From a virus, in the IMG/VR virus record IMGVR_UViG_3300014501_000012, positions 1-64,000 of that record: DNA of 64,000 nt. One strand, given 5' to 3'. The notes below the pieces were generated by a model, which had not been told where the DNA came from, searched no databases, and saw nothing but the letters and a program-made list of their open reading frames with translations. Numbering within the stretch: position 1 is the first letter of the stretch; the number at the start of each line of letters is the position of its first letter. The position numbers and the translations under genes were made by a program. Positions 2,093 through 62,677 of the stretch are shown one piece after another.

Positions 2093-2139
2093 ACCCGAGA
2101 GACGCCGGCGCGGTAGGGTAGACCCGTTTCCCAAGGAGG
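2087..2139 (+). promoter_or_regulatory. rtcB promoter with two operator-A copies and a CCCAAGGAGG SD
   Basis: GGGTAGACCC at 2087-2096 and 2116-2125; TAGGGT at 2114-2119; SD at 2130-2139. Confidence 0.65.
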
Positions 2140-2145
2140 TCCCCA

Positions 2146-3333
2146 GTGCCGAAACACATCGACAACGTGCTCTCATGGGCGTCCGATGTCGAGGACGCCA
2201 CGATCGAGCAGGCGGCCAAGGCCAGCCGACTCCCGTTCGTCCGCGGGCACCTGGCCCTCATGCCCGATGCCCATGTCGGGATCGGGGCGACGGTGGGCTC
2301 CGTAATCCCGACCGAGGGAGCGATCATCCCTGCCGCCGTTGGAGTGGACATCGGGTGCGGCATGATCGCAGCCGACGTGGGACTCACCGCCGAGCGGTTG
2401 CCGGACGACCTCGGTCCGCTGCTGTCAGCGATCGAGGAGTCGATCCCGGCCGGAGTCGGGAAGGGTCGGGACAAGGACATCCCGGGCTCTGGGCGAGTGT
2501 TCATGCCGCGGGCGCTGACTGAGGCGGTTGCCTTCAAGTACATGGGCGACCGCCATCGGGCCATCGCCGCGAACCAGCTCGGAACGCTTGGGTCGGGGAA
2601 CCACTTCGTCGAGGTCTGTCTCGACGAGCGCGGCCTGGTCTGGGTCGTTCTGCACTCGGGCAGTCGGGGCGTCGGAAATAAGCTCGCTCAGCACCACATC
2701 CAAATCGCTCGGGGTCTGATGAAGGACTACTTCATCGAACTCGAGGACCCGGACCTGGCCTACCTCGTCCAGGGCAAGCCGGAGTTCGACGCCTACATCG
2801 CCGATATGAACTGGGCTCAGGACTACGCGCTGGAGAACCGCGAGGCCATGATGCGGTTCGCCCTCAGCGCGTTGGCCGATGCTTGCGAGATGACCGACGA
2901 GGAGCGCGAGGGGCCGGTCGACACCGTGAACTGCCACCACAACTTTACTCGCCGCGAGCACCAGGTCGGTCGCAACATGTGGATCACGCGCAAGGGGGCG
3001 ATCGGGGCGCGGGCCGGGCAACGGGGTGTGATCCCGGGGTCGATGGGCACCTCCAGTTACATCGTCCACGGCCTGGGCAACCCAACGTCGTACTACTCAT
3101 GTTCGCACGGGGCCGGGCGGCGGATGTCCCGGAGCAGGGCGCGCAAGGAGCTGACGGTCGACTCGCTGCGTGAGCAGATGGGCGACCGGACCTGGAACGC
3201 CGACAAGGCCGAGGCCCTGCTCGACGAGCACCCAGACTCGTACAAGTCGATCGATCAGGTCATGGCCGACCAAGCTGACCTCGTGGCGATCGACCATACG
3301 CTGCACCAGGTTCTGAATTACAAGGGGGCATGA
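2146..3333 (+). CDS. rtcB: RtcB-family RNA ligase
   Basis: MPDAH.G.G, VGVDIGCG, GTLGSGNHFVE, LHSGSRG, HHN, RKGA, PGSMG, SHGAGR and DEHPDSYK motifs. Confidence 0.95.
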   Translation: MPKHIDNVLSWASDVEDATIEQAAKASRLPFVRGHLALMPDAHVGIGATVGSVIPTEGAIIPAAVGVDIGCGMIAADVGLTAERLPDDLGPLLSAIEESIPAGVGKGRDKDIPGSGRVFMPRALTEAVAFKYMGDRHRAIAANQLGTLGSGNHFVEVCLDERGLVWVVLHSGSRGVGNKLAQHHIQIARGLMKDYFIELEDPDLAYLVQGKPEFDAYIADMNWAQDYALENREAMMRFALSALADACEMTDEEREGPVDTVNCHHNFTRREHQVGRNMWITRKGAIGARAGQRGVIPGSMGTSSYIVHGLGNPTSYYSCSHGAGRRMSRSRARKELTVDSLREQMGDRTWNADKAEALLDEHPDSYKSIDQVMADQADLVAIDHTLHQVLNYKGA

Positions 3334-5414: not shown

Positions 5415-5444
5415 GGTCTACCCGTAGAAACTCCCCCAAGGAGG
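5401..5444 (+). promoter_or_regulatory. Promoter with operator C (CGCTACAGGGGTAG), operator A and a CCCAAGGAGG SD
   Basis: TAGGGT at 5412-5417; GGGTCTACCC at 5414-5423; SD at 5435-5444. Confidence 0.6.
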
Positions 5445-51602: not shown

Positions 51603-51635
51603 GGGTTCCTCCTTGGGGGTGGAATGCTTGGTGAC

Positions 51636-52897: not shown

Positions 52898-53514
52898 TGG
52901 TAAAGGGCAACACGCCTCCCGGTCCTGGTGTCGACGCGTCCGGCCAAGCCGTGATTGACCCTACCGCCAACGTCATCGCGATCCTGACAGCGGCGGTCGA
53001 TCGGCAGGACGATCTTCGGGACCTCGGGTTCAGCTGTATCCGGGAGGTACAAGCACTCCAGCGTGAGTTCGACAAGGAACGCCGTGAGTTTGCCCACGAG
53101 ATCAGAGCGGCTGAATCTGCTCGCATCGACGCCATCCGAACCGTCGATGTTGCTGCCGTCCAGCGGGCGGCGGAGGTGGCCGCCGAGGCCGTGCAGACGC
53201 TCGCGGCTCAGGTCCCGATCACCGCCGAGGCTGTCCGGACGTCTCTTGCCGCCGCGCTCGGCCCGATCCTGAACGACATTGGCGAGTTGCGGAAGGTGCA
53301 ATACGAGCAACAGGGGCAGAAGGCTGCTGGTGATGATCCGATGGTGCGGGCGCTGGCCGAGTTCCGGCAGTTCATGATCGAGACACAAACACAGAAGGAC
53401 GTGGCGGTCGAGCAGAAGGGATCGAACCAATGGGGGATCGGGCTCGCCGTGATCGGGTTCCTGTCGTTCGCTTCGATCATGACATCCGTCGTCGTACTTA
53501 TCATCCACGGATAG
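52897..53514 (+). CDS. Coiled-coil protein with C-terminal TM segment
   Basis: TGATG coupling; within the lysis cassette. Confidence 0.6.
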   Translation: MVKGNTPPGPGVDASGQAVIDPTANVIAILTAAVDRQDDLRDLGFSCIREVQALQREFDKERREFAHEIRAAESARIDAIRTVDVAAVQRAAEVAAEAVQTLAAQVPITAEAVRTSLAAALGPILNDIGELRKVQYEQQGQKAAGDDPMVRALAEFRQFMIETQTQKDVAVEQKGSNQWGIGLAVIGFLSFASIMTSVVVLIIHG

Positions 53515-53524
53515 GGAGAAACTT

Positions 53525-53791
53525 ATGGGACCACTGAGTGCAGTAGCCGGAATCGGTTGGCTGATCTTTTTCGGAGGTATCCAGATCGGATGGTGGGCGA
53601 CGGACAAGCCTGCCGTACTTGGCTGGGTGTCCATCATTGCCGCGGCACTGATCGCGCTTGATCTGTTCTGGCACCACGGGCGCGAATGGTTCGGCCGTAA
53701 GCGGTCCGAGTCGGGCCAGGTCGTCACCGTGCTCGTGGTGATCTTGATCGTCATCGTGATCTGCATCCTGCTCGGGGTCGTCGTCCGCTGA
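53525..53791 (+). CDS. Three-TM membrane protein (holin candidate)
   Basis: Three hydrophobic segments. Confidence 0.55.
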   Translation: MGPLSAVAGIGWLIFFGGIQIGWWATDKPAVLGWVSIIAAALIALDLFWHHGREWFGRKRSESGQVVTVLVVILIVIVICILLGVVVR

Positions 53792-54249
53792 TGGTCGACA
53801 CCCCGCCAGTCGAGGACAAGCCCATCCCGTTGTGGCAGACGTTGACCGTCATCGGGTACGTGGTCGCGGTCATCGGGATCACCGTCGGACTCGGCATCGC
53901 CTGCGGATGGGAGTGGCTGTGGCAGCGGATCCTCGCGGATTTCTGGCCGTTGGACAACGCGCACGTCGCCCCCAACATCCTGGCCTCGGTCATCCAGTAC
54001 ACGGTGATAGCGATCGCCGTGGTCCTGCTCTGGCCGACGGTTCGCAGGCGGATCCACAAGTTCGTTGACGCCAAGGTCCAACATGTCAAGGACCACGTGA
54101 CCGAGAGCCACCGGAAGCTGGCCGCCCACGTGACCGCTGAGCACGACGCCATCCATGAGAGGTTTGACCATCTACACGAGCACTTGAAGATCCCCCCGTT
54201 GCCAGAGGGCAAAGGGGTTCGCCCACCACGACCCGAGGAGAAACCATGA
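53791..54249 (+). CDS. Two-TM membrane protein with His-rich tail
   Basis: TGATG coupling. Confidence 0.55.
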   Translation: MVDTPPVEDKPIPLWQTLTVIGYVVAVIGITVGLGIACGWEWLWQRILADFWPLDNAHVAPNILASVIQYTVIAIAVVLLWPTVRRRIHKFVDAKVQHVKDHVTESHRKLAAHVTAEHDAIHERFDHLHEHLKIPPLPEGKGVRPPRPEEKP

Positions 54250-55457
54250 ACACCGTCCGCCGCATCCCCGAGCTCATCGTCCCAGGCAAGCGCCTCGGGC
54301 GACACGTCAACCACGACGACCGCTCGCTGGCCTACGCGCTCCCCGAGGCCGACACCGTGGTCAGCGTCCAATGGTCCCGGGTCATCCCAATTTTGGATCA
54401 GGGGGCCGTCGGCGCCTGTACTGGCAACGCATGCACCGGGATCCTTGGGACCGTGCCCGATTATCGGGACCTCGCGGCCAAGCTCGCCGCTGGCCTGGTT
54501 CTCGACGAAGCCGAGGCTTTGACGCTGTACTCGGCGGCCGAGACGATCGACGGTGACGGCCCGTACCCGCCGAACGACAACGGGTCCTCGGGACTCTCGG
54601 TAGCTCAGGCGGCCAAGAACGCCGGGCTGTGCTCGGGCTACGTCCACGCCCTGAGCGTTGCCGGGGCCCACACCGCCATCCAGGCCGGCCCGTTCATGGT
54701 CGGCTCGGACTGGTACACGAGCTTCGACACCCCCGACCCCAACGGGCTTGTGGCGATCGCTCCCGGCGCCACCGTCCGCGGCGGCCACGAGTACGAGTGC
54801 ATCGGCTACGACGCGGCCAGCGACCTGTGGCACCTGGTCAACTCCTGGGGGACCACCTACGGCGTCGAGGGGCACTTCTACTACTCGACGGCCACCTTCG
54901 CCGATCTTCTCGCCAGCGATGGGGACGTGACCTCGTTGGTCCCGTTGAGCCTGCCTGCCCCCACGCCCTCCCCGGCGCCCGCTCCCCCGGCTCCTGCGCC
55001 GACGCCGAGCCCACCGCCATCCCCCGCACCAGTCCCAACCCCACCGCCGTCCGGGTGCAGCCCGTTCGGCTCGAACAGAGGAGCAGCCATGGCCGCCTAC
55101 CAGAACGCGACGGACGTCCCCGACCGCGTCATCGTTCCCTCGGTGCCGATCCCTTCGATCCCCCTGCCGACGTGGAGCGATCCGGCGTCGGTGACTGCCT
55201 TCATCATCTCGGCCACCACCCTCACGCTCGGCATCCTGACGATGTTGCACGTGACCGTCCCCGCGAGCGTGTCGAACAACGTCACCACGTGGGCGGGGCT
55301 CGCCGGAGTCGCCATCGCCGCGCTGGTGCCGGTGTTCAACTGGGTCCGGGTCCACCTCGGGAGCAAGGTGGCGATGCAGATGGGGGTCCCGGTGCGCAAC
55401 CGCTACGGGGCGGTCTATCTGACGCAGGGGCCTGCCAGACCATCCATACAGGGCTGA
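54246..55457 (+). CDS. Papain-like (C1) cysteine peptidase fused via a Pro linker to a holin-like 2-TM domain
   Basis: LDQG.VGACTG (Cys), GGHE (His), VNSWG (Asn); C-terminal DP.....IS...LGIL...AALV. Confidence 0.8.
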   Translation: MNTVRRIPELIVPGKRLGRHVNHDDRSLAYALPEADTVVSVQWSRVIPILDQGAVGACTGNACTGILGTVPDYRDLAAKLAAGLVLDEAEALTLYSAAETIDGDGPYPPNDNGSSGLSVAQAAKNAGLCSGYVHALSVAGAHTAIQAGPFMVGSDWYTSFDTPDPNGLVAIAPGATVRGGHEYECIGYDAASDLWHLVNSWGTTYGVEGHFYYSTATFADLLASDGDVTSLVPLSLPAPTPSPAPAPPAPAPTPSPPPSPAPVPTPPPSGCSPFGSNRGAAMAAYQNATDVPDRVIVPSVPIPSIPLPTWSDPASVTAFIISATTLTLGILTMLHVTVPASVSNNVTTWAGLAGVAIAALVPVFNWVRVHLGSKVAMQMGVPVRNRYGAVYLTQGPARPSIQG

Positions 55458-55470
55458 GAGTCCTCGCCGC

Positions 55471-55605
55471 TTAGCGGCGCGCCCAGCACGGGTCGTCCAT
55501 CTCCAGGTCCATCACGGCGATCCGGATCCGGAGGAGCGCCCTCTTGGCCTCGGGGCTCATGGCGTCCCACTGGGACTGGGTGGTCGGGGTTTCGATCGGG
55601 TTCAT
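55471..55605 (-). CDS. 44-aa leaderless hypothetical protein
   Basis: TATACT-7nt-ATG; MNPIETPTTQSQWDAMSPEAKRALLRIRIAVMDLEMDDPCWARR. Confidence 0.55.
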   Translation of the reverse strand: MNPIETPTTQSQWDAMSPEAKRALLRIRIAVMDLEMDDPCWARR

Positions 55606-55720
55606 GGGTACTAGTATACACGGCCGACCCCCGAATACCAGGGGTTTCGACCAGAAATAGGCGGGAGTTTCTCCCCGTTTGCCCTGGTAATCGGGTGGGG
55701 ACCATGTATACTAGTACCCA
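55605..55720. promoter_or_regulatory. Divergent promoter pair forming a long imperfect palindrome (operator B x2)
   Basis: Perfect 16-bp inverted repeat TGGGTACTAGTATACA / TGTATACTAGTACCCA, plus CCCGAATACCAGGG / CCCTGGTAATCGGG. Confidence 0.75.
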
Positions 55721-55753
55721 CCAGGCAGGACCCGACCCAAGGAGGAAGCCCAG

Positions 55754-56119
55754 ATGGGACTCGTAATCAGTGTTTGCAGGGAAGTCGAGACCGGAGATTG
55801 CACGGCTGGCGGGATCTCCGGTCGGCACGGCCGCCTGACCGTGGTCAACATCGACGGGCCGTTCGACCCGACGCCTGACGCGCCCGCCGTCGCCCTGATC
55901 GACGGGCATCGGCCCGGCGACAAGATCCTGGTCCCGGTCATCTCTAACGGCGTCGCGTACCAGCGCGTCAGCCCAGAGGGGTTCACGGGTCCGATGTTCG
56001 GCGGCAACTTCGGGGCCACCTCGGACAGCCGATTCGGTCGGGCGACGGGGATCTACGGCGCCATCCCGATCCACGACCGGTTCGAGACCCATGAGGTCTA
56101 TGCCGCGATGTCGGACTGA
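55754..56119 (+). CDS. Hypothetical protein (conserved phage family)
   Basis: DCT.GGIS...GPMFGGNF..TSDSRF...AIPIHDR.ET; strong SD. Confidence 0.7.
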   Translation: MGLVISVCREVETGDCTAGGISGRHGRLTVVNIDGPFDPTPDAPAVALIDGHRPGDKILVPVISNGVAYQRVSPEGFTGPMFGGNFGATSDSRFGRATGIYGAIPIHDRFETHEVYAAMSD

Positions 56120-56134
56120 CCCTCGGTAGCATCA

Positions 56135-56313
56135 TGGCTGGGCCTTTCAGGAGGGGTCCCACGACGCGGGAGGTTCTTTCGAGGGACCTCCCGTTGTCGC
56201 GTGGGTGGTGTTACGATCCGCGGCCAGGGAACCGTCGCCATAGCGGCGTTTCCTCCTTGGGGCGAGCGTCCGCTCTTCCGGGTTCGACGGGTCCTTTGCG
56301 GGTCGCCCAGCCA
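56135..56313 (+). ncRNA. Candidate structured non-coding RNA (~180 nt)
   Basis: TAGCAT -10 at 56127; 9-bp closing helix TGGCTGGGC/GCCCAGCCA; long UUCG-capped hairpin 56158-56205; multibranch domain; G-U pairs only on the plus strand. Confidence 0.6.
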
Positions 56314-56337
56314 ACTCCGGGGGGGCGGGCGTTCGCA

Positions 56338-56411
56338 TGTCACACCCTCGTCGTAGGGTTGGTGCTGGCTCGCTACACCTGTAGCGGGTAGGGTCTACCC
56401 ACCCAAGGAGG
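56338..56411 (+). promoter_or_regulatory. recE/recT promoter region: TGTCAC-N10-TAGGGT, operator C, second TAGGGT with operator A, SD
   Basis: Elements at 56338-56359, 56371-56386 (CGCTACACCTGTAGCG), 56389-56400 and 56402-56411. Confidence 0.6.
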
Positions 56412-56416
56412 TGCCC

Positions 56417-57388
56417 ATGACCGTGACTAGCGAAGTGATCGACGCCCACGCCGAGGTCGTCGTCGAAGACACGACGAAGTTGGAGCGGCCCGAGTGGCTG
56501 GCTTTGCGCCGGCTCGGGATCGGCGGCTCCGACGCGGCGGCCGCTCTCTCGCTCAGCCCCTACGACTCGCGCTACGCCCTGTGGGTGGACAAGACCATGG
56601 GCGTCGACGACGAGGACAACGAGTCGATGTTCTGGGGGCGCCAGCTCGAAGAGGCCATCGGGCGCGGCTACGCCATCAAGACGGGCAAGGTCGTCGAGCG
56701 GTTCCCCAAGCTCCTGCGGTCTCGGCGGTGGCCCCACATGCAGGTGAACCTCGACTTCATCAACCCGGCCGAACTCGAGGTCGTCGAGGTCAAGAACACG
56801 GGGGCCCACATGGGCGACCTGTGGCAGGACGACGATGGCCGCCCGGTCGTCCCCCCGCACTACGCCATCCAAGGGCTGCACGAGCTGGCGGTGACCGGCT
56901 TCGAGCGCACCACGTTCCCCGTCCTCGTCGGTGGCAACCGGATGAAGATGGTCACCATCGAGCGCGACGACAAGGTCATCGAAGACCTGGCCGAGGCCGA
57001 GGCGGCGTTCTGGAAGCTCGTCGAAGAGAACACCCCTCCGGCCGTGGATGGCAGCCGGGCGACGTCGGAGACCCTCGCCGCCATCTACGGGGACCCCGAC
57101 CCCGACAGCATCATCGCCCTCGACGACTATCGCACCTCCGACGGGGAGTCGGTACCTGATCTGGTGAAGGGCTACAAAGACGCCGCCGCCCGAGTGAAGG
57201 CGGCGAAGGACGACCAGGACTACTACAAGAACAACCTTTTGGCGGCCATGGGTGACTTCGAGGTCGCCATCATCGGTGGCCATCCCGTCGTGACCTTCAA
57301 GAAGGTCGACAACGGGGGCTACACCAGCGTCGTTCAACCGTTCTCCTACCGCCGTATCAACACCAAACCCAAGGGAGCCCAGAAATGA
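56417..57388 (+). CDS. YqaJ/RecE-like exonuclease
   Basis: EWL..RR.GIGGSD, WG..LE, NLD, EVK and P.HY..Q motifs. Confidence 0.9.
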   Translation: MTVTSEVIDAHAEVVVEDTTKLERPEWLALRRLGIGGSDAAAALSLSPYDSRYALWVDKTMGVDDEDNESMFWGRQLEEAIGRGYAIKTGKVVERFPKLLRSRRWPHMQVNLDFINPAELEVVEVKNTGAHMGDLWQDDDGRPVVPPHYAIQGLHELAVTGFERTTFPVLVGGNRMKMVTIERDDKVIEDLAEAEAAFWKLVEENTPPAVDGSRATSETLAAIYGDPDPDSIIALDDYRTSDGESVPDLVKGYKDAAARVKAAKDDQDYYKNNLLAAMGDFEVAIIGGHPVVTFKKVDNGGYTSVVQPFSYRRINTKPKGAQK

Positions 57389-58737
57389 CCACGACAGCGA
57401 CACCCACCGCCAGCACCGACTCGGTCGGCGCCGCCATCGCCGAGCGCCGCAACAGTCCTGAACGCGCCGGCAAGACGATGGCTGAGCACGTCCGGGACCA
57501 CCGCGAGGCGATCGCCAGCATGCTCGGTAGCGAGGCCAAGGCCGACCGATTTATCTCGGTCGCGTTGCACCACTACAACGAGAACGGGTCGCTCAAGAAC
57601 GTGACCATGCCGCTCACGATCCTGGGTGCCATCATGCGGGCGGCCTCGCTACGACTCGACTTCACGCTGGACACTTGCTACATCGGCCCGCGCAAGAAGA
57701 AGGTCGGCAGCGGGTGGGCCACCGTGGCGCAGTTCCAGCTCGGATACAAAGGAATCATCGACCTCGCTCGGCGGTCACAAGAAATCAAGGAGATCGTCGC
57801 GCGGCCCGTATACGCGGGCGAGCCCTTCCAGATCTGGACGGATGAACTAGGCGACCACATGCGCCACGAGCGTCACCCTGAGCTGCAAACCGGCGATATC
57901 CTTTTTCACTACTCGCTGGCCGTGTTCACGAACGGCGGCAGCAACATTCAGATCGCCACGCTGGAGGATGTCGCCAAGCGGCGCGAGGCGAGCGACATGG
58001 GAACGTCCGAGTACGGGCCGTGGGTCAAGTGGCCGGTCGAGATGGCCAACAAGACGGCTGTCAGGATGCAGTCACCGTGGCTCCCCCTCAGCGTGGAAGC
58101 CCGCCAGGGAATCGAAGCGGACGAGACGGTCGTCGAATACACTCCGAGCGGCTTCATCCGGGAGGCGCCGAGCCCGGCCGAGGAGCCTCAGCCCCCCGAC
58201 GGGCTGGACGCCGGGACCCCGACGCTCGGGCGCGAGAACGTCCTGGAGAACATCGTGGGCTACATGGAGGCGCTCGAGCCCAAGGACCGCAACGCCTGCG
58301 GGTCGTACCTCTTGCGTACCTACGGATCGCTCGACCGGGTCCCCGACGAGCAGTTGGCCACGGTCCTCGAGATCGCCCGAGACTGGGCGGAGAAGGGCCA
58401 GCCGGGCGGTGGCCCCCAGACGGCCTCAGATGCCCCAGGAGCCCCGGGGGGTGCCGAACCCCCGTCAGAGGCGCCAGCGGGGCGGGACGGTGCCGATCTG
58501 GGGGAGTCGGGGCAAACGGGCGACCCCCAGCCTGGGCCATCGGGCCGGATCGATGAAGACCTCCTCGACAAGACCCAGCGGGTGATCGAGACCTGGACAC
58601 CCGAGCAGGTGGACCGGATCAGCCGGGAGTGGGAGATCCCGGTGCAGGGCAAGATCGAGGCGCGCCGGCTCCGTCTCGTCGAGCGCCTGACCCGCGAGCG
58701 CCAGGCCGGGAACCAGGCGGCGATAGATCTCTTCTAG
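57385..58737 (+). CDS. recT: RecT-family recombinase with long C-terminal extension
   Basis: AQFQLGYKGIIDLARRS; PW.....EMA.KT.VR....WLPLS. Confidence 0.9.
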   Translation: MTTTATPTASTDSVGAAIAERRNSPERAGKTMAEHVRDHREAIASMLGSEAKADRFISVALHHYNENGSLKNVTMPLTILGAIMRAASLRLDFTLDTCYIGPRKKKVGSGWATVAQFQLGYKGIIDLARRSQEIKEIVARPVYAGEPFQIWTDELGDHMRHERHPELQTGDILFHYSLAVFTNGGSNIQIATLEDVAKRREASDMGTSEYGPWVKWPVEMANKTAVRMQSPWLPLSVEARQGIEADETVVEYTPSGFIREAPSPAEEPQPPDGLDAGTPTLGRENVLENIVGYMEALEPKDRNACGSYLLRTYGSLDRVPDEQLATVLEIARDWAEKGQPGGGPQTASDAPGAPGGAEPPSEAPAGRDGADLGESGQTGDPQPGPSGRIDEDLLDKTQRVIETWTPEQVDRISREWEIPVQGKIEARRLRLVERLTRERQAGNQAAIDLF

Positions 58738-58763
58738 GTCCCCGGCCCGATCTGGGCTCCCGC

Positions 58764-58796
58764 GTATACTAGTAACCATCCCCAAACCCAAGGAGG
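58764..58796 (+). promoter_or_regulatory. Promoter/operator B plus CCCAAGGAGG SD
   Basis: GTATACTAGTA at 58764-58774; SD at 58787-58796. Confidence 0.7.
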
Positions 58797-58804
58797 GAAA
58801 CCCC

Positions 58805-59068
58805 ATGAGACCAGTGCACCCGGAGGACAAGTCCGTCGTCGAGATCCTGCTACTCGGCGCGGCGGTCGGCGCGTTCATCACCGGGGCGGTCCTCGCCCTG
58901 GCGCTGTCGCCGGGGGAGATCGGCCCGGAGGTCGGGGTCTTCGTCGGTGGCGTCGCCGTGGCGGTGATGTTCGTCGGGCTCGCGCTCGCCGTCCACTTTC
59001 ACCGTCAGGCGCGGTTTGCTGAGGCCCGCGACTTCTGGGCGTGGAAGCGCCGCGGGCAGCTCCGGTGA
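58805..59068 (+). CDS. Two-TM membrane protein
   Basis: Hydrophobic segments; strong SD. Confidence 0.6.
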   Translation: MRPVHPEDKSVVEILLLGAAVGAFITGAVLALALSPGEIGPEVGVFVGGVAVAVMFVGLALAVHFHRQARFAEARDFWAWKRRGQLR

Positions 59069-62627: not shown

Positions 62628-62677
62628 CGCTACAGGTGTAGTATCGGCGGAACGAACGGACCACCTACCCAAGGAGG
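62628..62677 (+). promoter_or_regulatory. Promoter (TAGTAT) overlapped by operator C, plus CCCAAGGAGG SD
   Basis: CTACAGGTGTAG at 62630-62641; SD at 62668-62677. Confidence 0.6.

What the first reader, a model, noticed from the sequence alone, without database searches (positions are those of the whole stretch)
56135..56313. Structured ~180-nt RNA carrying an anti-SD for the phage early genes
Seen: an intergenic segment after a TAGCAT -10 box folds into several elements. These are a closing helix (TGGCTGGGC/GCCCAGCCA), a long hairpin (56158-56205, UUCG loop), a helix GATCCGCGG(56215)/TTGCGGGTC(56296), and three enclosed hairpins, the last with a GGTTCGA loop. Many pairs are G-U only on the plus strand. 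It contains TTCCTCCTTGGGG (56250-56262), the reverse complement of the extended SD CCCAAGGAGG. That SD is found at seven leaders: 2130 (rtcB), 5435, 51617(-), 55736, 56402 (recE), 58787 and 62668 (merR). Pairing is 10-13 nt (13 with the 51602 gene, 12 with 55754). I did not see this CCC-extended SD at structural genes. Inference: a trans-acting phage sRNA that switches off translation of a whole early regulon. Alternative: the same bases are an SD for a 47-aa minus-strand ORF (56241-56098), but that ORF has atypical codon usage and no visible promoter.
Basis: partly seen in the sequence, partly recalled or inferred. Interest (0 to 1): 0.85.

Follow-up and report, generated by a model that had tools for sequence, protein, structure and literature searches.

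The report
Phage RNA segment mirroring its ribosome-binding tag
An uncultured permafrost phage marks nine non-structural genes with one private, extended ribosome-binding sequence and carries a single mirror-image copy in a folded non-coding stretch, which probably masks those sites by RNA pairing, though no transcript has been seen.

Summary
CCCAAGGAGG occurs 8 times in the window against 0.16 expected and 10 times in the 84.8-kb genome. Nine copies lie 5-9 nt before a start codon and downstream of a promoter or operator motif. The tenth is inverted, at 56252-56261, in non-coding DNA. The plus strand folds better than the minus strand (-98.5 vs -76.8 kcal/mol; z -3.5 vs -2.2).

The trans-sRNA reading is only partly supported:
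- I found no promoter or terminator, no homologue and no Rfam family.
- No RNA contig covers the element.
- The anti-SD is mostly paired in the best fold.
- The best complement (14 of 15) is the leader of the gene directly upstream, and in-silico folds pair them at P about 1.

I therefore favour a cis-acting, icaR-like anti-SD, with trans action possible.

A parallel turned up in cluster K1 mycobacteriophages. Their single inverted start-associated sequence sits in the loop of a covariation-supported hairpin, where late transcription is reported to start.

Earlier notes of this scan describe similar candidate phage anti-SD RNAs on other DNA. I did not check them.

The parts
56135..56313 (+).
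   Evidence: MFE -98.5 kcal/mol, z -3.53 on plus against -76.8, z -2.20 on minus. No coding signal in any frame. No Rfam family or tRNA.
56250..56262 (+). Anti-SD: reverse complement of the extended SD CCCAAGGAGG, plus flanks
   Evidence: It is the only inverted copy not followed by a credible gene. Unpaired probability 0.04-0.49 in the isolated element.
56158..56205 (.). Long GC-rich hairpin just after the stop codon of the 121-aa gene; candidate U-less terminator or processing site
   Evidence: Present in every fold. Significant on both strands: z -2.6 on plus, -3.4 on minus for 56150-56212. The terminator scan, which requires a T run, does not call it.
55754..56119 (+). 121-aa gene of unknown function (phrog_6045) whose 3' flank is the element
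   Evidence: GC3 0.84, codon score +0.335 per codon. PHROG hit E 3.4e-12. Homologues in 36 phage records, including TM4 gp76.
55733..55747 (+). Leader and SD of the 121-aa gene; best complement of the anti-SD (14 of 15)
   Evidence: Inverted repeat I5. Pairs with 56250-56264 at P 0.98-1.0 over the 12 core pairs in folds of 55719-56320.
55706..55716 (+). GTATACTAGTA promoter-like motif (TATACT -10) ahead of the 121-aa gene
   Evidence: 5 copies in the genome, each oriented toward a gene start. Inferred promoter, not shown.
56402..56411 (+). Extended SD of the YqaJ/RecE-like exonuclease gene; 10 of 10 complement, 140 nt downstream of the anti-SD
   Evidence: I19. Pairs with the anti-SD at P 0.92-0.99 in a read-through RNA 56120-56460.
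2130..2139 (+). Extended SD of rtcB
5435..5444 (+). Extended SD of a 464-aa gene of unknown function
51608..51617 (-). Extended SD of a 116-aa minus-strand gene (13-nt complement to the anti-SD)
58787..58796 (+). Extended SD of an 87-aa gene
62668..62677 (+). Extended SD of a MerR-like gene
56098..56241 (-). 47-aa minus-strand ORF behind the inverted motif; judged not a gene
   Evidence: GC3 0.62 against 0.87 in genes. Codon score -0.418 per codon, at the 1st percentile (-0.406) of true in-frame windows. No promoter motif upstream. No Pfam or PHROG hit.

Best explanation
The plus strand of 56135-56313 is a non-coding RNA segment, and its 13-nt stretch UUCCUCCUUGGGG base-pairs with the phage's private extended Shine-Dalgarno tag CCCAAGGAGG.

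Most likely it is not a separate gene. It is probably the 3' untranslated region of the 121-aa gene 55754-56119, transcribed from the GTATACTAGTA promoter at 55706, and, when transcription reads on, the upstream part of the recE leader. On such transcripts it folds back on whichever tagged ribosome-binding site is on the same molecule: the upstream gene's (14 of 15) or recE's (10 of 10). That would hide the site from 30S subunits and create a long duplex that a double-strand RNase could cut. This is the logic shown for icaR mRNA in Staphylococcus aureus.

The same stretch could also pair in trans with the other seven tagged leaders.

Shown: motif statistics, non-coding nature, strand-biased folding, complementarity, thermodynamic feasibility.
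Inferred: transcription of this strand, transcript ends, any effect on translation.
For: 1. Motif. There are 10 copies in the genome against about 0.2 expected. Nine of 9 forward copies sit 5-9 nt before a start codon and within 75 nt downstream of one of three promoter or operator motifs. The inverted copy has none.
2. The inverted copy lies in DNA with no coding signal in any frame. The same codon model recognises a 44-aa gene nearby.
3. Folding is strand-biased: -98.5 vs -76.8 kcal/mol, and for 56215-56304 z -2.2 on plus vs +0.25 on minus.
4. The best complement of the nine is the leader of the adjacent upstream gene, 14 of 15.
5. In folds of the putative mRNA 55719-56320, the 12 core SD:anti-SD pairs form at P 0.98-1.0. 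In 56120-56460 the recE SD pairs at P 0.92-0.99. With both present the split is about 0.64 to 0.36.
6. Duplexes of the anti-SD region with the nine leaders are predicted at -27 to -42 kcal/mol, against -11 to -15 for a generic 16S tail. Opening the anti-SD costs 6-8.6 kcal/mol.
7. The consensus scan finds no separate promoter, which fits a 3'UTR origin.
8. Precedent: pairing between the icaR 3'UTR and its SD (PMC3868564, abstract read).
9. Parallel: the one inverted SAS of K1 mycobacteriophages lies in a covariation-supported hairpin loop.
Against: - No transcript evidence. The two RNA-library runs that hold pieces of this phage have no contig over the element, and contigs cannot show strand or ends.
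- No relatives, so there is no covariation or conservation test.
- If the long hairpin 56158-56205 is an efficient terminator, the anti-SD 45 nt downstream would not be in the 121-aa gene's mRNA.
- In the isolated element the anti-SD is largely paired.
- A 12-14 bp GC-rich duplex will win any thermodynamic fold, so one search shows feasibility, not use.
- About 0.2 chance copies are expected genome-wide, roughly 0.01 of them in intergenic DNA in this orientation (my estimate). A decayed inverted leader is not covered by that null.
- In cluster K, 10 of the 17 sampled phages keep the same SAS without a matching loop. Such tags therefore do not need an anti-tag.
Confidence: 0.38

Rival explanations
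1. Independent trans-acting small RNA. The element is transcribed from its own promoter, TAGCAT at 56127 or another TANNNT. Its anti-SD pairs with all nine tagged leaders to shut off translation of the non-structural regulon at a set time.
For: - Nine leaders share the exact 10-mer, and the tag's CCC is not needed for pairing with a generic 16S tail.
- Plus-strand-biased structure.
- A fold 7 kcal/mol above the optimum shows the anti-SD in a 12-nt apical loop.
- Parallel: in K1 mycobacteriophages the anti-SAS loop lies in a conserved structured RNA. In Adephagia that RNA sits in the gene 92-93 gap, where late transcription is reported to begin. That would make it an abundant late RNA able to meet early mRNAs in trans.
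- 6C sRNA shows that C-rich loops suffice for chaperone-free targeting in high-GC Gram-positives (PMC6486639, abstract).
- The sequence before TAGCAT (ACCCTCGG) resembles that before the TAGGGT at 56346 (ACCCTCGTCG) (my reading).
Against: - The scan finds no promoter or terminator.
- About 1.3 TANNNT hexamers are expected by chance in 290 nt at this composition (my estimate).
- A start 6-9 nt after TAGCAT falls inside the 9-bp closing helix.
- The anti-SD is mostly paired in the best fold.
- No conservation data exist.
- The best complement is the neighbouring gene rather than a consensus of all targets.
Confidence: 0.2
2. No RNA-pairing function. The long hairpin is simply the terminator of the 121-aa gene. 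The rest is GC-rich spacer, and the inverted motif is a chance copy or the relic of a former, inverted promoter-leader cassette in a mosaic genome.
For: - No homologues, no Rfam family, no transcript evidence.
- Most of the fold significance comes from the hairpin. Without it the signal is only z -1.9 to -2.2.
- An ATG 10 nt after the inverted SD opens a 47-codon frame, as a decayed gene start would.
- 10 of 17 sampled cluster K phages lack a matching loop although they keep SAS.
Against: - Only about 0.01 chance copies are expected in intergenic DNA in this orientation.
- No trace of any of the three promoter or operator motifs lies upstream on the minus strand, although 9 of 9 true leaders have one.
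- The match extends to 13-15 nt with two leaders.
- The folding bias favours the plus strand, which a relic of a minus-strand gene would not predict.
- The K1 inverted SAS is invariant in 7 of 7 K1-type phages of the sample, plus Adephagia, while the surrounding stems covary.
Confidence: 0.3
3. The motif is a real SD on the minus strand that drives translation of the 47-aa ORF 56241-56098.
For: An exact copy of the phage's strongest SD with an ATG 10 nt downstream and an open frame of 47 codons.
Against: - GC3 is 0.62 against a gene mean of 0.87. The codon score of -0.418 per codon is at the 1st percentile of true in-frame windows and no better than its own off-frames.
- Neighbouring small genes of 44-121 aa score +0.31 to +0.57.
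- No promoter motif lies upstream, and every downstream gene is on the plus strand.
- The SD-start spacing of 10 nt lies outside the 5-9 range of the nine leaders.
- No Pfam or PHROG hit.
- The ORF would overlap the 3' end of the 121-aa gene.
Confidence: 0.05
4. A DNA-level element between the lysis genes and the recombination genes: a protein-binding palindrome, a recombination or packaging site, or a small inserted element bounded by the 9-bp inverted repeat TGGCTGGGC/GCCCAGCCA.
For: - A perfect 9-bp terminal inverted repeat and a 48-bp near-palindrome that is equally strong on both strands.
- Imperfect direct repeats flank the segment, ACCCTCG..GTAG at 56118-56130 and 56343-56354 (my reading).
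Against: - There is a single copy in the genome and none in 162 related loci, so there is no sign of mobility.
- No adjacent integrase or transposase.
- A DNA site does not explain exact complementarity to the SD tag or the G-U-dependent plus-strand bias.
Confidence: 0.05

Closest known systems
icaR mRNA 5'UTR-3'UTR pairing in Staphylococcus aureus (PMC3868564; abstract read)
   Same: A pyrimidine-rich anti-SD motif downstream of the stop codon is complementary to the SD of the same gene. In icaR the pairing blocks initiation and creates an RNase III substrate. Here the complement to the upstream gene's leader is 14 of 15 and forms at P about 1 in silico.
   Different: The transcript ends are unknown here. 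The motif is 13 nt rather than 7. The same SD tag is shared by eight other genes, so trans targets exist. The setting is a phage, not a host regulator.
Start-associated sequences (SAS, GGGATAGGAGCCC) of cluster K mycobacteriophages (PMC3203893, passages read; PMC11373665, passages read)
   Same: - An asymmetric conserved motif that contains the SD core but extends beyond what 16S can pair with.
- It lies a few nt before start codons of non-structural genes that follow promoter-bearing intergenic gaps.
- There are 10-19 copies per genome.
- There is exactly one inverted copy that is not at a gene start. Pope et al. state this for the four K1 phages; I confirmed it in Anaya, with 16 forward and 1 reverse copy against 0.81 expected.
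- Both papers say the function is unknown.
   Different: - The motif sequence differs, and there is no detectable homology of the surrounding RNA.
- In K1 the inverted copy sits in a hairpin loop of a conserved RNA at the start of the late transcription unit. Here it lies after a small early-type gene and before recET.
- SAS-bearing phages outside K1 lack the matching loop.
6C sRNA of high-GC Gram-positive bacteria (Rfam RF01066; PMC6486639, abstract read)
   Same: C-rich single-stranded stretches pair with G-rich mRNA sites through several G-C pairs without a chaperone, in the same kind of host. The phage is probably actinobacterial, judged from 67% GC, a leaderless gene and mycobacteriophage homologues.
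   Different: No Rfam hit at gathering score in the window or at E up to 10 in 55900-56500. 6C is a host RNA with its own promoter and terminator and exposed loops. Here the motif is largely paired and the transcript ends are unknown.
Phage antisense RNAs that mask a phage ribosome-binding site: P1/P7 c4 and P22 sar (recalled from the literature; the lead came from scan note e1-5903171)
   Same: A phage-encoded RNA pairs with the ribosome-binding region of phage mRNAs to block translation.
   Different: Those RNAs act on one operon through dedicated sites or as true antisense transcripts. None targets a tag shared by many unlinked genes. No Rfam match was found here.

Membership tests
icaR-type 3'UTR anti-SD (works-like comparison) | Anti-SD motif complementary to the SD of the same gene | tested here: met
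   55733-55747 against 56250-56264, 14 of 15. The 12 core pairs form at P 0.98-1.0 in a fold of 55719-56320.
icaR-type 3'UTR anti-SD (works-like comparison) | The motif lies within the 3'UTR of that mRNA, that is, before the transcript's 3' end | tested here: inconclusive
   No T-tailed terminator on the plus strand. The hairpin 56158-56205 could stop transcription before the motif. RNA-run contigs give no ends.
icaR-type 3'UTR anti-SD (works-like comparison) | Pairing blocks initiation and gives an RNase III substrate | not testable with these tools
   Needs toeprinting, cleavage or reporter assays.
Trans-acting base-pairing sRNA | Own promoter and terminator giving a discrete small transcript | tested here: inconclusive
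   Consensus scan: 0 promoters and no plus-strand terminator in 55300-56600. TANNNT hexamers are present but expected by chance. No usable RNA data.
Trans-acting base-pairing sRNA | Seed exposed in a loop or single-stranded stretch | tested here: not met
   Unpaired probability 0.04-0.49 across 56250-56262. Opening cost 6.1-8.6 kcal/mol. The motif is exposed only in suboptimal folds.
Trans-acting base-pairing sRNA | Several mRNA targets with seed complementarity at the ribosome-binding site | tested here: met
   9 leaders with at least 10 contiguous complementary nt. Duplexes -27 to -42 kcal/mol.
Cluster K SAS system | Conserved asymmetric motif including the SD core, 3-9 nt before start codons of non-structural genes | tested here: met
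   9 of 9 forward copies lie 5-9 nt before ATG or GTG of rtcB, recE, a merR-like gene and small unknown genes.
Cluster K SAS system | Motif sequence GGGATAGGAGCCC | tested here: not met
   The motif here is CCCAAGGAGG. This is analogy, not membership.
Cluster K SAS system | A single inverted copy not at a gene start (K1 subcluster) | tested here: met
   One inverted copy without a credible gene, at 56252-56261. In Anaya, 1 reverse copy of 17.
Cluster K late-region structured RNA (model R1, built here) | Match to the covariance model | tested here: not met
   R1 gives 13 weak hits in the window (best 13 bits, E 0.13), none at 56135-56313. It scores 221 bits on Adephagia and 133 bits on Pixie.
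tRNA-like, tmRNA or Y RNA (suggested by the GGTTCGA loop and the phage rtcB) | Detection by ARAGORN or Rfam; a Ro/TROVE partner gene for Y RNA | tested here: not met
   0 tRNA or tmRNA genes. 0 Rfam families at gathering score. No TROVE match in the genome.
6C sRNA (RF01066) and P1 c4 RNA | Rfam covariance-model match | tested here: not met
   No match at gathering score in the window. At E up to 10 in 55900-56500 there are only two unrelated eukaryotic models at about 15 bits.

The most novel reading that the evidence does not exclude
Some actinobacterial phages give their non-structural genes a private extended ribosome-binding tag and carry exactly one matching anti-tag in a structured RNA. 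In this permafrost phage the anti-tag follows a small gene next to recET. In cluster K1 mycobacteriophages it sits in the leader of the late transcript. When that RNA accumulates, it masks the tags and switches off translation of the whole tagged gene set. This would explain the start-associated sequences, whose role has been described as unknown since 2011.
Probability: 0.22. Interest if true: 0.85.

Novelty: new variant of a known kind. Interest (0 to 1): 0.6.

Why it matters
Masking of ribosome-binding sites by RNA pairing is a known mechanism. A virus that labels a whole set of unlinked genes with its own extended ribosome-binding tag, and keeps one complementary RNA stretch to address them, would be a compact, programmable translational switch.

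The cluster K mycobacteriophage start-associated sequences were described in 2011. A 2024 paper (PMC11373665, passages read) still calls their role ill-defined or not known. This study shows that the one inverted copy in K1 phages lies in the loop of a covariation-supported hairpin, where late transcription is reported to begin.

That turns an open question into a direct experiment in a culturable system:
- mutate the loop;
- follow translation of the tagged early genes;
- restore with compensatory changes.

For the permafrost phage itself the case rests on sequence logic alone.

Tried and rejected
Homologue searches that found nothing useful
- blastn of 55400-57400 and of 56100-56400 against 50,697 phage records gave 2 irrelevant records and none.
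- Relatives of the flanking proteins in IMG/VR were one locus each, at 28% and 45% identity.
- The best RecE-like protein among 5.8 billion is 48% identical.
- An alignment-based search gave 80 viral and 80 metagenome loci, best 45%.
- nhmmer of 56120-56410 against 162 loci (1.84 Mb) gave no hit. Loci fetched later were not scanned this way.
- The regions upstream of recE in the three closest loci, and downstream of the L003 homologue, show no comparable element.
- TerL relatives are at most 40% identical.
- The 14-mer pattern returned 118 stretches or more, which are generic SD sites. I did not examine them further.
- The 20-mer around the anti-SD has 0 matches in viral contigs and 1 in genome contigs, inside a Pirellulales coding region. 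I treat that as chance.

Sequencing runs
- 16 listed runs hold parts of 53000-59000, all permafrost or peat. Two are RNA libraries with 7% of the words.
- After laying X15, X16, X3 and X2, no RNA-run contig covers 56135-56313. This is no evidence of absence, and contigs give no strand or ends.
- DNA contigs over 55991-56289 and 56348-57247 show 0 and 1 differences. There is therefore no natural variation to test covariation.

Ideas rejected
- tRNA-like or Y RNA-like element.
- Retron-like RNA: no reverse transcriptase appears among the neighbouring genes.
- Membership of the cluster K RNA family.
- Co-variation of the SAS with the loop across K subclusters. SAS stays GGGATAGGAGCCC in the 5 non-K1 phages tested, while their loops differ.
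- Function of the 121-aa protein: nothing informative.
- My crude codon-based gene map missed many genes, leaving 31% 'non-coding', so I did not use it for intergenic statistics.

Papers
- The ZoeJ paper (PMC6452893), which may describe cluster K transcripts, is not held.
- Searches for 'ZoeJ' with 'noncoding RNA' or 'non-coding RNA' gave 0 and 5 papers. I opened two of the five and neither was relevant.
- I therefore cannot say that the K RNA or its anti-SAS loop is unpublished. I can only say that I found no mention of it in the searches or in the passages read.
- Supplementary files were not opened. Figure S3 and Tables S1-S6 of PMC3203893 may list the inverted sites.
Full report
SETTING
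The window is the first 64 kb of an 84,831-bp IMG/VR virus record that CheckV rates complete. The element occurs once in it. The DNA is 67% G+C. Near-identical sequence is held only by permafrost and peat metagenomes.

The finding lies in a 291-bp gap, 56120-56410. Upstream is a 121-aa gene (55754-56119; phrog_6045, unknown function). Downstream is a YqaJ/RecE-like exonuclease gene (56417-57388), followed by recT. A papain-like peptidase of the lysis region ends at 55457. A 44-aa minus-strand gene (55471-55605) lies between it and the 121-aa gene.

THE OBSERVATION
- The 179-nt plus strand folds to -98.5 kcal/mol. Shuffles give -81.8 +/- 4.7, so z is -3.53, with 1 of 200 as good.
- The minus strand reaches only -76.8 kcal/mol (z -2.20, 5 of 200).
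- 15 of the 69 pairs in the plus-strand fold are G-U.
- The 48-nt hairpin 56158-56205 is robust and symmetric: z -2.6 on plus and -3.4 on minus for 56150-56212.
- The 3' part folds significantly only on the plus strand. For 56215-56304, z is -2.2 with 5 of 200 shuffles on plus, against +0.25 with 117 of 200 on minus.
The region has several competing folds.

THE MOTIF
CCCAAGGAGG occurs 8 times in the window against 0.16 expected, and 0 of 100 shuffles reach 8. It occurs 10 times in the whole genome.

Nine copies are oriented with a gene.
- Their GGAGG ends 5-9 nt before an ATG or GTG.
- 9 of 9 have one of three conserved motifs within 75 nt upstream: GTATACTAGTA, TAGGGT with GGGT(CT/AG)ACCC, or the palindrome CTACAnnTGTAG.
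- The tag therefore marks the first gene behind a promoter or operator.
- The genes include rtcB, recE, a merR-like gene and small genes of unknown function.
- One-mismatch variants also precede genes.

The tenth copy is inverted, at 56252-56261. It has no such motif upstream on its strand.

IS THE INVERTED COPY THE SD OF A MINUS-STRAND GENE?
The 47-codon frame behind it has GC3 of 0.62, against 0.87 in 28 long training ORFs. Its codon log-likelihood is -0.418 per codon. That lies at the 1st percentile (-0.406) of true in-frame windows of the same length and is no better than its own off-frames.

The same model gives +0.31 to +0.57 to neighbouring genes of 44-121 aa. No frame of the gap looks coding. 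There is no Pfam or PHROG hit. I reject this reading (confidence 0.05).

IS IT A KNOWN RNA?
- ARAGORN finds nothing.
- Rfam finds nothing at gathering score in 64 kb. At E up to 10 in 55900-56500 it gives only two unrelated eukaryotic models at about 15 bits.
- The GGTTCGA 'T-loop' and the phage rtcB suggested a Y RNA. The genome has no TROVE/Ro gene.

ARE THERE HOMOLOGUES?
None. See Tried and rejected for the full list.

The phage is a singleton at the level needed: TerL relatives are at most 40% identical and RecE relatives at most 48%.

EXPRESSION
I could lay only assembled contigs of public runs. They show pieces of the phage in two RNA libraries but none over the element, and they cannot give strand or ends. 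This says nothing either way.

HOW IT MOST LIKELY WORKS
Of the nine leaders, the best complement is that of the gene directly upstream: 55733-55747 against 56250-56264, 14 of 15. I then folded three putative RNAs.
- mRNA from the GTATACTAGTA promoter (start assumed near 55719) to 56320: the 12 core pairs of the SD:anti-SD helix form at P 0.98-1.0.
- Read-through RNA 56120-56460: the anti-SD pairs with the recE SD at P 0.92-0.99.
- Both SDs present: the ensemble splits about 0.64 to 0.36.

Opening the anti-SD within the isolated element costs 6-8.6 kcal/mol.

The consensus scan finds no promoter and no plus-strand terminator in 55300-56600. TANNNT hexamers such as TAGCAT are expected by chance about once in this gap (my estimate). 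A start 6-9 nt behind TAGCAT would also delete half of the proposed closing helix.

Taken together, the simplest reading is that the anti-SD rides on transcripts that begin upstream and masks a tagged SD on the same molecule, as shown for icaR (PMC3868564, abstract). Trans action on the other leaders remains possible. Transcription, transcript ends and any effect on translation are all inferred.

THE CLUSTER K PARALLEL
What the papers say:
- The tag resembles the start-associated sequences (SAS) of cluster K mycobacteriophages. Pope et al. (PMC3203893, passages read) describe a 13-bp asymmetric motif containing AGGAG, 3-7 bp before start codons of right-arm genes, and of unknown function.
- A 2024 paper still calls the role unknown and places putative promoters in the extended SAS (PMC11373665, passages).

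What I found:
- In Anaya there are 16 forward copies and 1 reverse copy, with up to 2 mismatches allowed and 0.81 expected. The reverse copy lies in the 385-bp gp96-gp97 gap.
- That gap matches 182 cluster K records by blastn. I fetched 16 of them, spread down the ranking, and aligned 17 sequences.
- I counted an RNAalifold structure on that alignment. It has 62 pairs, and 89.5% of cells are paired, against 32-42% when partners are slid.
- 14 pairs change on both sides, against 6.5 +/- 1.7 in shuffles (0 of 500 reach it) and 4-9 when slid. In the stem below the loop, 8 of 10 pairs are compensatory.
- The structure was predicted on the same alignment, which favours it over the slid controls. 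The compensatory changes do not depend on that.

Loop contents:
- CCTCCTATCC(C), complementary to SAS over 10 contiguous nt, in 7 of 17 phages: Anaya, Tiri, Apocalypse, Yunkel11, Peanam, Validus and SgtBeansprout.
- A C/U-rich partial match in 5 of 17.
- Unrelated or deleted in 5 of 17.
- The 5 non-K1 phages tested keep the identical SAS (17-18 forward copies each), so tag and loop do not co-vary.

Reach of the RNA:
- A covariance model of this RNA scores 221 bits on Adephagia at JF704105 58590-58804, inside the gene 92-93 gap. The 2024 paper says late transcription appears to initiate there.
- It scores 133 bits on Pixie, which has a longer loop, and only 32 bits on TM4, which lacks the hairpin.
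- Rfam has no family for it.
- It does not match the permafrost element. The two are analogous, not demonstrably homologous.

The parallel raises the odds that a lone inverted tag in a structured, transcribed non-coding stretch is functional. The non-K1 phages show that such tags can work without an anti-tag.

VERDICT
My weights:

| Reading | Confidence |
|---|---|
| Cis-acting anti-SD on upstream-initiated transcripts | 0.38 |
| Separate trans-acting sRNA | 0.20 |
| No RNA-pairing function (terminator plus chance or relic copy) | 0.30 |
| Minus-strand gene | 0.05 |
| DNA-level site | 0.05 |

The mechanism class is known (icaR, 6C-type C-rich seeds, phage antisense RNAs). The arrangement, a shared private tag on unlinked genes plus one anti-tag, would be a new variant.

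Earlier notes of this scan report similar candidate phage anti-SD RNAs in other genomes. I did not test them and they are not counted as evidence.

Noticed in passing
L362:39779-39992 (Anaya, JF704106 59778-59991); L380:2091-2305 (Adephagia, JF704105 58590-58804): Cluster K mycobacteriophages share a structured non-coding RNA of about 215 nt behind an invariant TAGACT box, in the gap where Adephagia late transcription is reported to start. In K1-type phages its main hairpin loop is the complement of the start-associated sequence. Covariation: 14 pairs with changes on both sides against 6.5 in shuffles. There is no Rfam family. I found no mention of it in the papers I could search.
   Followed up: partly
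window 55471-55619 (-) and 55605-55720: A 44-aa minus-strand ORF with a strong coding signal (GC3 0.96) starts 7 nt after a TATACT box of a GTATACTAGTA motif, so it is probably leaderless. That promoter and the one for the 121-aa gene form a 39-nt inverted repeat, 85% complementary (55605-55643 / 55682-55720): mirror-image divergent promoters.
   Followed up: partly
window 56118-56132 and 56343-56351; 56259-56273 and 56322-36: The element is flanked by similar short stretches, ACCCTCGGTAGCAT and ACCCTCGTCGTAGGGT. The sequence right after the anti-SD (GGGGCGAGCGTCCGC) is repeated 63 nt downstream with 13 of 15 identical (D7). This may be a trace of a local duplication. The second TAGGGT at 56346 suggests tandem promoters ahead of recE.
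   Followed up: no
window 55754-56119: The 121-aa protein has homologues (29-41% identity) in 36 phage records of very different hosts. They include mycobacteriophage TM4 (the match lies under gp76) and other Mycobacterium phages, Brevundimonas jumbo phages, Sinorhizobium phiM12-like phages and Methylophilales phages. Its function is unknown.
   Followed up: partly
genome 76899, 77672, 83974 (beyond the window); window 30914 and 793(-): One-mismatch variants of the tag (CCCAAGGAGA, ACCAAGGAGG, CCCGAGGAGG) also sit just before start codons. The leaders upstream of all copies are C/A-rich and G-poor.
   Followed up: no
window 53000-59000: Strain variants of this phage (about 95-99% identity, patchy) occur in several permafrost and peat metagenomes from different studies. 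One variant contig of the 121-aa gene (55829-56014, 8 differences and 2 gaps) also appears in an RNA library.
   Followed up: no
window 2146-3333; L362:35036-36223: Both this phage and Anaya (gp88) encode an RtcB-like RNA ligase, and in both the gene carries the phage's start tag (CCCAAGGAGG here; a 2-mismatch SAS in Anaya at L362:35021-35033).
   Followed up: no
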